A stretch of 64,000 bases of DNA from a virus, in IMG/VR virus record IMGVR_UViG_3300043425_001673, positions 1 through 64,000 of that record. One strand, given 5' to 3'. A program made the position numbers and the translations under genes. Positions within the stretch are counted from its first letter, which is position 1. Every line of letters begins with the position of its first letter. The notes under the pieces were generated by a model. The model worked only from the letters and a program-made list of their open reading frames with translations, was not told where the DNA came from and did not search any database. This document shows, one piece after another, positions 12,626 to 12,975 of this stretch.

Positions 12626-12975
12626 GAGGGAGCCACCATAGTTTAGCATACTACCGCTCCCCCCGGTGTCGAAAGAAGAAATACCCATTCTTCCCCCGAG
12701 ATAGTTTTGTCAGCTTTGCTTCGGACTCTTTGAATAATAAGGATTGGCTGCTGAAATTCCCGCTTTGCCGTCTAAGCTACCAGCCCTCACAGAGTTTGAT
12801 CTTTGCAAACGCTCTGAGGGCCGGGCAGGAATCGAACCTGCGTCAAGAACCATAAATCCCTACATTCTCTGATTCATCCTTTTCACTGACTTCAGTCTGT
12901 GTCCTCAAAAAGCTGCATGCATCGGTTGGCACCTTTGCCTCAGACTCAATTTGAAACTGACACTGAAACTAGGAC
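12626..12975 (-). ncRNA. putative ~350-nt structured RNA with a circularly permuted tRNA-like domain
   Basis: On the minus strand: T-arm GCAGG-TTCGATT-CCTGC, closed acceptor hairpin CCGGCCC..GGGCTGG, then TA-GCTT-AGACGGCA-AAGC D-arm; closing stem 12732-12745/12855-12867; further hairpins at 12626-12699. Confidence 0.75.
12934..12975 (-). repeat. hexamer tandem repeat, about (GTNTNA) x7
   Basis: GTCCTA GTTTCA GTGTCA GTTTCA AATTGA GTCTGA GGCAAA. Confidence 0.6.

What the first reader, a model, noticed from the sequence alone, without database searches (positions are those of the whole stretch)
12626..12975. Large ncRNA with a circularly permuted tRNA-like domain downstream of a coiled-coil gene
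Seen on the minus strand, 5' to 3': hexamer repeats; stem GAATGTAGGGATT; T-arm GCAGG TTCGATT CCTGC; acceptor 3' strand CCGGCCC; a hairpin linker; acceptor 5' strand GGGCTGG; TA; D-arm GCTT AGACGGCA AAGC; closing AATCCTTATTATTC; then two more hairpins, one with a GTATGCTAAAC loop region. The T-arm comes before the D-arm, the acceptor is closed by a loop, and there is no anticodon loop or CCA. Known: bacterial YrlA Y RNAs have this permuted tRNA mimicry and partner Ro60/Rsr. No Ro60 gene is in the window; the neighbour is the 257-aa DUF7873-like protein. Inference: a protein-ncRNA system in which a tRNA mimic acts as decoy or scaffold, for example against tRNA-targeting defences.
Basis: partly seen in the sequence, partly recalled or inferred. 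Interest (0 to 1): 0.85.

Follow-up and report, generated by a model that had tools for sequence, protein, structure and literature searches.

The report
Phage tRNA-mimic RNA with DUF7873 partner
Just after a phage gene of unknown function (DUF7873) lies a folded RNA of about 365 bases, made of six-letter repeats plus a back-to-front, anticodon-less tRNA look-alike; the same gene-RNA pair recurs in many phages and bacteria and is probably an undescribed RNA-protein particle built like the Ro60/Y-RNA system but with a different protein.

Summary
On the minus strand, 12610-12975, there are six perfect nnUnAR hexamers, a 13-bp closing stem, a T-arm, a 7-bp acceptor closed by a hairpin, a D-arm and two 3' hairpins. 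There is no anticodon loop and no CCA.

A covariance model built only from other loci hits the window once (12740-12863, 54.9 bits, E 2e-21). It also hits just downstream of about 140 of 160 DUF7873 genes from phages and bacteria.

The RNA is YrlA-like in design but is not a YrlA family member:
- Rfam scores it 34 bits against a cut-off of 69.
- It lacks the Ro60-binding motif.
- The phage record has no Ro60, and neither do any of 27 complete DUF7873 phages.
- Bacteria that have Ro60 carry a separate YrlA beside it.

No other neighbouring gene is conserved. The DUF7873 model is confident (pLDDT 89) but matches no known fold. In Herpetosiphon the RNA and the protein gene lie 1.8 Mb apart, so the RNA is a gene of its own.

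The decoy-against-defence idea is untested and rather weak. I found the pair in no paper or library searched. This scan has met the same module at least 35 times on other DNA.

The parts
12987..13760 (-). DUF7873 gene. The ORF is 257 aa from the TTG start; the likely start is the ATG at 13754, giving 255 aa. It is the presumed protein partner of the RNA.
   Evidence: Pfam PF25283, 276 bits, E 4e-82. There is a 100% identical 255-aa cluster. The AF2 model has pLDDT 89.2 and pTM 0.79.
12939..12974 (-). Single-stranded hexamer tract of six consecutive nnUnAR units: UCCUAG UUUCAG UGUCAG UUUCAA AUUGAG UCUGAG.
   Evidence: This is the strongest lag-6 signal of the whole gene-plus-RNA stretch. Phase alignment over 128 loci gives U3 59%, A5 66% and R6 72%. 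The equivalent tracts stay unpaired in the RNAalifold consensus of 30 relatives.
12868..12938 (-). Linker between the hexamer tract and the closing stem. Its fold is not settled, and it contains looser hexamer-like repeats.
   Evidence: The MFE pairs it with the tract but the centroid structure does not. No comparative support was obtained.
12855..12867 (-). Closing stem, 5' strand.
   Evidence: It pairs with 12732-12745 in both the MFE and the centroid structure. The nearest relative L161 has a stem of different sequence at the same place. Across the family, module flanks pair better than shuffled ones: median z -1.9, and 48% fall below -2.
12740..12863 (-). Permuted tRNA-like core. In order: a 4-bp anticodon-stem equivalent (UUCU 12846-12849 with GGGA 12758-12761), T-arm 12825-12841, acceptor 3' strand 12818-12824, extension hairpin 12787-12817, acceptor 5' strand 12780-12786, UA, and D-arm 12762-12777.
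   Evidence: R1 scores 54.9 bits, E 2e-21. Rfam YrlA scores 34.2 bits. In the family alignment, 20 of 21 pairs show compensatory changes; the covariation score is 0.85 against 0.24 when shuffled and at most 0.17 when slid.
12732..12745 (-). Closing stem, 3' strand.
12670..12698 (-). 3' hairpin A, with the loop AUGGGUAU (family loop motif YGGnnA).
   Evidence: It is present in the MFE and the centroid structure. L161 and L162 have a hairpin of different stem sequence with the loop AUGGCGAU. The terminal hairpin of 30 actinobacterial and Chloroflexi RNAs has an invariant GG..A in its loop and a covarying stem.
12625..12664 (-). 3' hairpin B, with a 9-bp G+C-rich stem and a 22-nt loop holding UAAAC and CUAUGGUG. 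It is followed by an ACC tail (12607-12624).
   Evidence: L161 has the same hairpin, with UAAAC and CUAUGGUG in the loop. Whether it is homologous to the bacterial UUAAACG element was not established.
13775..13792 (-). Three hexamer-like units (CUUCAU UUUCAG UUUCAU) just upstream of the DUF7873 ribosome-binding site. They may be an autoregulatory site.
   Evidence: Read directly from the sequence. The signal is weak across the family: runs of two or more perfect hexamers occur in 27% of 5' UTRs against 12% when shuffled, and there is no lag-6 peak.

Best explanation
The region encodes the RNA half of a self-contained two-part module: a DUF7873 protein plus a structured ncRNA of about 365 nt. 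It is built on the same plan as Ro60/Y RNA particles but does not depend on Ro60.

Shown here:
- The RNA folds into a single-stranded tract of nnUnAR hexamers, a long closing stem carrying a closed tRNA look-alike (T-arm, 7-bp acceptor, D-arm; no anticodon loop, no free ends), and 3' hairpins.
- This architecture is kept by compensatory changes.
- It travels with DUF7873 genes through many phages and bacterial phyla.

Inferred:
- Several DUF7873 protomers bind the hexamer tract, reading U3, A5 and R6.
- The tRNA-shaped domain works as a handle for host machinery that recognises the tRNA elbow and acceptor. Candidates are RNase P, the CCA-adding enzyme, TruB or Dus, exoribonucleases such as PNPase, or the ribosome.
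- The particle would then tether DUF7873 to that machinery or hold the machinery back.
- In this phage the acceptor is sealed by an extended hairpin, so the RNA probably stays in one piece. In relatives whose loop carries N73-CCA, RNase P cleavage and a free CCA end are likely, as was shown for M. smegmatis YrlA.
For: The structure is real and specific.
- R1, trained without the window, gives one hit in the 94.8-kb record.
- Covariation in the family alignment is strong.

The RNA is linked to DUF7873.
- T-arm and permuted modules lie 30-470 nt downstream, on the same strand, in 135 of 160 loci by pattern scan.
- By model they are found in about 73 of 80 viral and 67 of 80 bacterial loci.
- They are also present in cultured phages: Gordonia phage Ronaldo and Klebsiella phage Centimanus.
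- No other protein-coding neighbour is shared. The next-largest ORF clusters are antisense ORFs inside the gene itself, and the remaining neighbours are unrelated genes.

The RNA is a gene of its own. In two Herpetosiphon genomes the full twin-module RNA, with its terminator, sits between a glycosyltransferase gene and a CLC channel gene. In H. aurantiacus this is 1.8 Mb from the DUF7873 gene.

The module does not depend on Ro60.
- There is no TROVE domain in the record.
- None of 27 complete DUF7873 phages has one.
- 13 of 40 bacterial genomes lack one.
- Genomes that have Ro60 also carry a separate YrlA beside it.

The hexamer tracts look like protein-binding sites.
- Lag-6 autocorrelation is 0.326 against about 0.26 for other lags.
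- The consensus is nnUnAR.
- The tracts are conserved in sequence yet unpaired in the consensus fold.

The protein is a uniform, stand-alone family: about 2,800 clusters at 50% identity, all 241-256 aa. No fused forms were found.

There is a precedent for the way the tRNA-like handle is used (PMC4201824; bioRxiv 10.1101/312249).
Against: - No transcript, protein-RNA contact or phenotype has been shown. The partnership rests on gene neighbourhood alone.
- The DUF7873 fold matches nothing informative, so RNA binding is only assumed.
- The consensus scans find no promoter or terminator for the RNA in the window. It could be made only as the 3' part of the mRNA.
- About 20 loci show no RNA beside the gene.
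- Module selection for the training alignment required paired T, acceptor and D stems, so the 'per cent paired' figure for those helices is partly circular. The compensatory changes, the unselected anticodon-like helix (71% paired against about 40% when slid) and the independent hit in the window are not circular.
Confidence: 0.6

Rival explanations
1. It is an ordinary YrlA-type Y RNA that the phage supplies to work with the host's Ro60 (Rsr). Its position beside DUF7873 would then be incidental.
For: - The best Rfam match is YrlA, over the full model length.
- R1 also detects true YrlAs beside rsr at 46-55 bits.
- 27 of 40 DUF7873-bearing bacteria have a TROVE protein somewhere in the genome.
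- Phage-borne YrlAs are known (PMC4201824).
Against: - The score is half the Rfam cut-off: 34.2 against 69.
- The Ro60-binding GNCGAAN0-1G motif is absent from the window and not enriched in the family: 31 of 135 loci against 21 of 135 when shuffled.
- Genomes with Ro60 keep a separate YrlA next to it.
- 13 of 40 genomes and all 27 complete phages lack Ro60.
- The link to DUF7873 holds in about 140 of 160 loci.
Confidence: 0.1
2. It is an anti-defence decoy. The tRNA look-alike soaks up a host nuclease or modifying toxin that attacks tRNAs, and DUF7873 protects or loads the decoy.
For: - The module sits in an accessory island on the minus strand together with an Acb2/Tad1-like sponge gene, between a VIPR system and a PrimPol-RT gene.
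- Many phage copies lie among phage tRNA genes.
Against: - There is no anticodon loop, so the mimic cannot bait anticodon nucleases.
- The pair is widespread in bacterial chromosomes next to housekeeping genes, which points to a cellular role.
- No defence gene is a conserved neighbour.
Confidence: 0.12
3. It is a split tRNA-like or tmRNA-like molecule. RNase P and 3' trimming would open the acceptor loop to give a two-piece RNA with a chargeable CCA end that acts in translation.
For: - N73-CCA follows the acceptor 3' strand in 72 of 176 modules, where about 3 are expected by chance, and in 40 of 54 single-module phage RNAs.
- U(-1) is found in 52%, a purine at -2 in 86% and G+1 in 81% of modules.
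- All modules have a 7-bp acceptor.
- M. smegmatis YrlA is cut by RNase P and receives CCA in vivo.
- There are weak Rfam matches to permuted and beta-type tmRNA.
Against: For the window itself:
- There is no CCA (the sequence reads UCAG), position -1 is A, and the loop is a 31-nt helix stacked on the acceptor. This closed class makes up 21 of 176 modules.
- ARAGORN finds no tmRNA.
- The tmRNA scores are far below their cut-offs.

For the family: acceptor sequences vary freely, with no common identity element. The CCA could also be a relic of an origin from tandem tRNA genes, which R1 also hits.
Confidence: 0.08
4. It is only a cis-acting 3' UTR of the DUF7873 mRNA, a processing or stabilising element with no function of its own.
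For: - It is always on the same strand, directly after the stop codon.
- No separate promoter was found in the window.
- tRNA-like 3' elements are known to mark processing sites.
Against: - In Herpetosiphon the RNA is kept 1.8 Mb from the gene, with its own terminator.
- A total of 350-450 nt of covarying structure plus sequence-conserved single-stranded tracts is far more than a stabiliser needs.
Confidence: 0.07

Closest known systems
YrlA (Y RNA-like A; Rfam RF02553) with Ro60/Rsr, especially the M. smegmatis and actinomycete type (Chen et al. 2014, PMC4201824; Wang et al. 2018, bioRxiv 10.1101/312249)
   Same: - The tRNA mimic is circularly permuted in the same order: T-arm, acceptor closed by a loop, then D-arm.
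- There is no anticodon loop.
- The mimic is carried on a stem made from the flanking sequence.
- The acceptor has 7 bp, as in M. smegmatis.
- It is found in both bacteria and phages.
- It is encoded next to the gene of a presumed protein partner.
   Different: - The neighbouring protein is DUF7873, not Ro60.
- It scores below the Rfam cut-off (34 against 69 bits).
- It has no GNCGAAN0-1G Ro60-binding motif.
- It is two to three times longer.
- It carries single-stranded nnUnAR hexamer tracts, often two tRNA modules, and a 3' hairpin with a YGGnnA loop.
- It coexists with a true YrlA in the same genomes.
Two-piece (circularly permuted) tmRNA (Rfam RF04321, RF01850)
   Same: The gene order is T-arm, acceptor 3' strand, intervening loop, then acceptor 5' strand. 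Many relatives encode N-CCA before the loop.
   Different: - The window copy has no CCA.
- There is no tag reading frame.
- There is no G3:U70 pair.
- ARAGORN does not call it.
- Scores are 12-21 bits against cut-offs of 47-84.
VIPR (Vipr protein filament on 5-nt periodic vrRNA; bioRxiv 10.64898/2026.04.26.720920 and .720927) and Cas7 backbones with 6-nt periodic crRNA contacts
   Same: A small stand-alone protein gene sits beside an RNA with short, strictly periodic repeats in which some positions are fixed and others are free. The same phage also carries a VIPR system.
   Different: - The period is 6, not 5.
- The free positions hardly vary within one RNA, so a programmable guide is unlikely.
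- The DUF7873 fold gave no credible RAMP/Cas7 match (TM about 0.1).
- A tRNA mimic is attached.
TRAP-type ring proteins that bind (G/U)AG repeats spaced by 2-3 nt
   Same: The tract has conserved triplet-like positions recurring every 5-6 nt in single-stranded RNA. That pattern suggests one protomer binds each repeat.
   Different: There is no sequence or fold relationship, and the motif is different (U..AR). This comparison is from my own knowledge and was not tested.

Membership tests
YrlA / bacterial Y RNA (Rfam RF02553) | Reaches the Rfam gathering score (69 bits) | tested here: not met
   34.2 bits, E 1.5e-5, full model length. There is no gathering-level match in the window or in 16 relatives' loci.
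YrlA / bacterial Y RNA (Rfam RF02553) | Encoded next to an rsr (Ro60, TROVE domain) gene | tested here: not met
   There is no TROVE match in the 94.8-kb record, which is 67% complete. None of 27 complete DUF7873 phages has one. In complete bacterial genomes Ro60 lies hundreds of kb to several Mb away.
YrlA / bacterial Y RNA (Rfam RF02553) | Ro60-binding module with the conserved GNCGAAN0-1G motif (PMC4201824) | tested here: not met
   The motif does not occur in 12601-12990 (-). In the family it occurs in 31 of 135 loci against 21 of 135 when shuffled.
YrlA / bacterial Y RNA (Rfam RF02553) | tRNA-like domain in the order T-arm, closed acceptor, D-arm | tested here: met
YrlA / bacterial Y RNA (Rfam RF02553) | Bound by Ro60 in cells | not testable with these tools
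   This needs immunoprecipitation.
DUF7873-associated tRNA-mimic RNA (undescribed; defined by this scan) | Lies within about 500 nt downstream of a PF25283 gene, on the same strand | tested here: met
   The gene is at 12987-13760 (-), 276 bits. The RNA starts within about 12 nt of the stop codon.
DUF7873-associated tRNA-mimic RNA (undescribed; defined by this scan) | Permuted tRNA module matched by a model trained on other members | tested here: met
   R1 scores 54.9 bits, E 2e-21, and this is the only hit in the record.
DUF7873-associated tRNA-mimic RNA (undescribed; defined by this scan) | Single-stranded nnUnAR hexamer tract 5' of the module | tested here: met
   Six perfect units at 12939-12974.
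DUF7873-associated tRNA-mimic RNA (undescribed; defined by this scan) | 3' hairpin with a YGGnnA loop | tested here: met
   The window loop is AUGGGUAU (12670-12698). Compare L161 and L162 and the 30-sequence alignment. The match was made by reading the sequences, not by a model.
tmRNA, standard or permuted | Detected by ARAGORN or Rfam; encoded CCA after the acceptor; tag reading frame | tested here: not met
   ARAGORN finds none. RF04321 scores 11.8 against a cut-off of 47, and RF01850 scores 21 against 84. UCAG follows the acceptor.
tRNA (canonical or permuted tRNA gene) | Anticodon arm and loop | tested here: not met
   A 4-bp stem leads into an internal loop and a 13-bp closing stem, and there is no 7-nt loop. 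RF00005 has no match in the record.
Pfam DUF7873 (PF25283), for the neighbouring protein | Exceeds the curated cut-off over the full profile | tested here: met
   276 bits against a cut-off of 27, covering profile positions 1-242 of 244.
RAMP/Cas7-like filament proteins (including Vipr) | RRM-like RAMP fold | tested here: inconclusive
   There are only weak Foldseek rows for Cascade Cas7 chains and one viral RAMP protein: E about 0.01-0.03, TM 0.10-0.13. None appears in the VIA-align top 50.

The most novel reading that the evidence does not exclude
DUF7873 and its RNA form a new class of ribonucleoprotein. A protein of a so far unknown fold assembles along a six-nucleotide-periodic single-stranded track, one protomer per nnUnAR unit, and displays one or two tRNA-shaped heads at fixed points. 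In many members these heads are opened by RNase P to expose a CCA end. The particle would plug into tRNA processing, RNA decay or the ribosome. Phages would have borrowed it from bacteria to retune that machinery during infection.
Probability: 0.3. Interest if true: 0.88.

Novelty: new variant of a known kind. Interest (0 to 1): 0.78.

Why it matters
Y RNAs and their tRNA-like domains have so far been tied to a single protein, Ro60, and what the tRNA-like domain binds is still unknown.

Here the same RNA device is joined to a different, widespread protein: about 2,800 clusters at 50% identity, found from actinomycetes and planctomycetes to jumbo phages. The RNA also has a repeat track that looks like a multi-protomer binding site.

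If confirmed, this would show three things:
- tRNA-mimic scaffolds are a general building block of bacterial and phage RNPs.
- There is a second, genetically tractable entry point to the open question of what these mimics recruit. Cultured Gordonia, Klebsiella, Vibrio and Rhizobium phages carry the module.
- Public phage records need correcting, because the RNA is at present annotated as small hypothetical proteins or as an odd tRNA.

Tried and rejected
- Close relatives by single-protein scans of viral and metagenome contigs: none found. Alignment-based scans did work.
- nhmmer with the window RNA against 160 loci: one weak hit only. The family is conserved in structure, not in sequence.
- Fold searches of the DUF7873 model: PDB by Foldseek, 48,161 PDB representatives by VIA-align (best Z 8.9 to a designed helical protein, only generic helical-bundle matches) and viral BFVD. 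None was informative. A PDB sequence-profile search gave nothing. The ESM Atlas returned only DUF7873 clusters. No longer, fused forms were found.
- PHROGs has no family for the protein.
- The promoter and terminator consensus scan gave nothing above shuffled expectation.
- The idea that the hexamer tracts are the two strands of a long helix was rejected for the family: RNAalifold pairs only 3 columns between tracts 1 and 2. It is not excluded for the window's 12868-12938 linker.
- The idea that the hexamers form a programmable guide, as in VIPR, was set aside. Units within one RNA are nearly identical, and their free positions follow genome G+C content.
- Autoregulation through 5' UTR hexamers has only weak support across the family.
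- A protein-coding reading of the antisense ORF 12454-12855 (+) found no family in Pfam or PHROGs.
- Literature: 'DUF7873' gave 0 papers. Searches on YrlA with phage, and on tRNA-like Y RNA with bacteriophage, gave only the known Ro60 work. The searches gave nothing relevant. The VIPR paper does not mention tRNA-like RNAs or hexamers.
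Full report
**What is in the window**

The window belongs to a 94.8-kb uncultivated-phage record from IMG/VR, estimated 67% complete. On the minus strand a 255/257-aa gene (12987-13760) is a full-length member of Pfam DUF7873 (276 bits). The following 365 nt or so hold no credible coding frame. 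The only ORF there is an antisense one of 133 aa with no family.

Read 5' to 3' on the minus strand, the region contains:
- six consecutive hexamers with U at position 3, A at 5 and a purine at 6 (12939-12974);
- a 70-nt linker of unsettled fold;
- a 13-bp closing stem (12855-12867 with 12732-12745);
- a 4-bp stem standing where a tRNA has its anticodon stem;
- a textbook T-arm (12825-12841);
- a 7-bp acceptor (12818-12824 with 12780-12786) whose two strands are joined by a 31-nt hairpin;
- UA, then a D-arm (12762-12777);
- two hairpins (12670-12698 and 12625-12664).

There is no anticodon loop and no CCA.

**Is it more than chance?**

Standard tools are blind to it. ARAGORN finds nothing, and no Rfam family reaches its cut-off. 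The permissive Rfam scan gives YrlA over its full length at 34.2 bits, E 1.5e-5, with weaker partial matches to permuted and beta-type tmRNA.

I fetched 160 loci encoding DUF7873 relatives, 80 from viral contigs and 80 from bacterial genomes. I then wrote a pattern scan for 'T-arm, 7-nt strand, loop, complementary 7-nt strand, two bases, D-arm'. It found one or two such modules 30-470 nt downstream of the stop, on the same strand, in 135 loci. ARAGORN calls hardly any of the first modules, and Rfam sees only true tRNAs nearby.

An alignment of 53 modules with short loops, the window not among them, gives the expected cloverleaf-minus-anticodon. Compensatory changes occur at 20 of 21 pairs. The covariation score is 0.85, against 0.24 for shuffles and at most 0.17 for slid partners.

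One caveat applies. My scan required the T, acceptor and D stems to pair, so 'per cent paired' for those helices is partly circular. The variety of pair types is not circular. Nor is the anticodon-like helix, which was not used for selection (71% paired against about 40% when slid).

The covariance model R1 built from this alignment hits the window once, at 12740-12863 (-), with 54.9 bits and E 2e-21. It hits nowhere else in the whole record. The record has no canonical tRNA either, so this is not a junction between tandem tRNA genes. R1 recovers a strong hit just after the gene in about 73 of 80 viral and 67 of 80 bacterial loci.

**The rest of the RNA**

The leaders between the stop codon and the first module show a period of six. 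Mean identity at lag 6 is 0.326 and at lag 12 is 0.298, against about 0.26 at other lags and 0.27 when shuffled (n = 128). Phase alignment gives the consensus nnUnAR. The window's tract is among the cleanest.

In a 30-sequence alignment of actinobacterial and Chloroflexi RNAs, the tracts are conserved in sequence (invariant C, U and A every six bases). RNAalifold leaves them unpaired. A three-part long-range stem with many compensatory changes encloses module 2, and a terminal hairpin has an invariant GG..A in its loop.

The window's hairpin A carries the same loop type (AUGGGUAU). So do the nearest relatives L161 and L162 (AUGGCGAU), with different stems.

L161 encodes a protein 54% identical to the window's, and its RNA folds into the same overall plan as the window RNA. 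This includes the hairpin-extended acceptor without CCA, a closing stem of unrelated sequence, and the two 3' hairpins with UAAAC and CUAUGGUG in the last loop. Flanks of modules across the family pair better than shuffled flanks: median z is -1.9, and 48% fall below -2.

**What goes with it**

Clustering all ORFs of the 160 loci shows no conserved neighbour other than DUF7873 itself. The next clusters are antisense ORFs inside the gene. Real neighbours are a mixed bag: DNA ligase, RecA and primase genes in phages, and ABC transporter, two-component and LysX genes in bacteria.

DUF7873 is a sizeable family of strikingly uniform length: about 2,800 clusters at 50% identity, all 241-256 aa. No fused forms were found.

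Its AlphaFold model is confident (pLDDT 89.2, pTM 0.79): a bundle of long helices packed on a beta sheet with a long hairpin. No solved or viral predicted structure resembles it beyond generic helical bundles.

Seventy-five cultured phages carry the gene, infecting Vibrio, Rhizobium, Gordonia, Klebsiella, Serratia, Arthrobacter and other hosts. In Gordonia phage Ronaldo the RNA lies under two small 'hypothetical protein' CDSs. In Klebsiella phage Centimanus it lies under a 'tRNA-Stop' call.

**Relation to Ro60 and YrlA**

- The window's record has no TROVE domain.
- None of 27 complete DUF7873 phages has one, and only 1 of 49 records is over the cut-off.
- Of 40 DUF7873-bearing bacterial genomes, 27 have a TROVE protein. 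In the complete genomes it lies far from the DUF7873 locus.
- In Dactylosporangium, a Streptomycetaceae strain and an Abditibacteriota genome, R1 finds a second, separate permuted module right beside the Ro60 gene. This is the genuine YrlA. The two systems therefore coexist.
- The Ro60-binding motif GNCGAAN0-1G (PMC4201824) is absent from the window RNA and not enriched in the family.

The RNA works like a YrlA in design, but it fails three defining tests of membership.

**An independent gene**

In Herpetosiphon aurantiacus and H. giganteus the DUF7873 gene has no RNA next to it. In H. aurantiacus a complete twin-module RNA, with hexamer tracts, the UUUAAACG element and a U-tailed terminator, lies 1.8 Mb away. 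It sits between a glycosyltransferase gene and a CLC channel gene. H. giganteus has the same pair of modules on another contig. This argues against a mere 3' UTR and for action in trans.

**CCA and processing**

In 72 of 176 distinct modules the acceptor 3' strand is followed by N73-CCA, where about 3 are expected by chance. This is the case in 40 of 54 single-module phage RNAs. Position -1 is U in 52% of modules, -2 is a purine in 86%, and +1 is G in 81%.

M. smegmatis YrlA has a 7-bp acceptor like these. It is cut by RNase P in vitro, and in vivo it is cleaved and receives CCA. Many family members are therefore probably opened into two base-paired pieces with a free CCA end.

The window copy belongs to a minority class (21 of 176) with no CCA, A at -1, and a long helix closing the acceptor. 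It most likely stays closed, like Salmonella YrlA.

R1 also scores junctions of tandem identical tRNA genes. That hints at how such modules arose, and it offers a non-functional explanation for the CCA.

**Mechanism**

Shown: a conserved, covarying RNA architecture, and its tight genomic coupling to DUF7873.

Inferred: DUF7873 binds the periodic single-stranded tract, probably as several protomers. The tRNA-shaped head is a handle for machinery that recognises the tRNA elbow and acceptor, as proposed for Y RNAs.

I put 0.6 on this RNP reading as a whole, and much less on any particular client enzyme.

The decoy idea is possible for phage copies, since the window's island also holds an Acb2/Tad1-like gene. 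It does not fit well with the missing anticodon loop or with the housekeeping settings in bacteria.

**Novelty**

I found nothing on DUF7873 or this RNA in the paper library or in Rfam 15. The scan's own notes show that the same module was met at least 35 times on other DNA, with the same reading. My tests agree with those notes and add several points:
- the coexistence with true YrlA;
- the unlinked Herpetosiphon RNA;
- the CCA and leader statistics;
- the division into closed and open classes;
- the unpaired state of the tracts.

I class it as a new variant of a known kind (Y-RNA-like tRNA-mimic RNPs) with a new protein partner.

Noticed in passing
window 11146-11454 (-): A 102-aa protein has an Acb2/Tad1 hairpin domain (PF24729, 34.4 bits, E 2.6e-8). 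It ends the same leftward run of small genes that starts with DUF7873 and the RNA. It is probably a cyclic-nucleotide sponge that counters CBASS or Thoeris.
   Followed up: partly
L242:1400-1800 (-) = Herpetosiphon aurantiacus chromosome about 1.172 Mb; also G010:C16:59472-59727: The twin-module RNA of this family is encoded alone, between a GT4 glycosyltransferase gene and a CLC channel gene. In H. aurantiacus it is 1.8 Mb from the DUF7873 gene (L151). This is a natural case of the pair being unlinked.
   Followed up: yes
176 modules in L001-L160: N73-CCA is encoded right after the acceptor 3' strand in 41% of modules, and in 74% of single-module phage RNAs. The leader is pre-tRNA-like (U at -1, a purine at -2). 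The Ro60-linked YrlA of Dactylosporangium also has GCCA there.
   Followed up: partly
G002 (Ca. Uabimicrobium amorphum) 7401817-7402165 and 7424261-7424607, and similar places: The permuted-module model scores 40-60 bits on junctions between tandem tRNA genes (T-arm and acceptor of one copy plus acceptor and D-arm of the next). This is a source of false positives. It is also a plausible route by which permuted tRNA mimics with an internal CCA arose.
   Followed up: partly
L263 (Gordonia phage Ronaldo, NC_048028.1 61123-61592) and L264 (Klebsiella phage Centimanus, OZ240615.1 121400-121483): Public annotation places two tiny hypothetical CDSs (gp124, gp125) over the RNA modules that R1 detects in Ronaldo, and a 'tRNA-Stop(tta)' over those in Centimanus. 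These are probably misannotations.
   Followed up: partly
window 13775-13792 (-): Three hexamer-like units (CUUCAU UUUCAG UUUCAU) lie just before the DUF7873 ribosome-binding site and echo the RNA's tract. Across 150 relatives the 5' UTR signal is only weakly enriched (27% against 12% when shuffled).
   Followed up: yes
A5 columns 476-485; window 12680-12687 (-): The terminal hairpin loop has an invariant GG and A (YGGnnA) from actinomycetes to this phage. It looks like an extra D-loop-type GG that could dock on a T-loop, either its own or that of a cellular tRNA.
   Followed up: no
L082, L083, L086, L092, L095, L097, L115 (Cytophagales, Microscillaceae and other Bacteroidota): These DUF7873 genes have no detectable module downstream. 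Their genomes do have R1 hits elsewhere, some beside Ro60. It was not resolved whether a diverged RNA partners DUF7873 there.
   Followed up: partly
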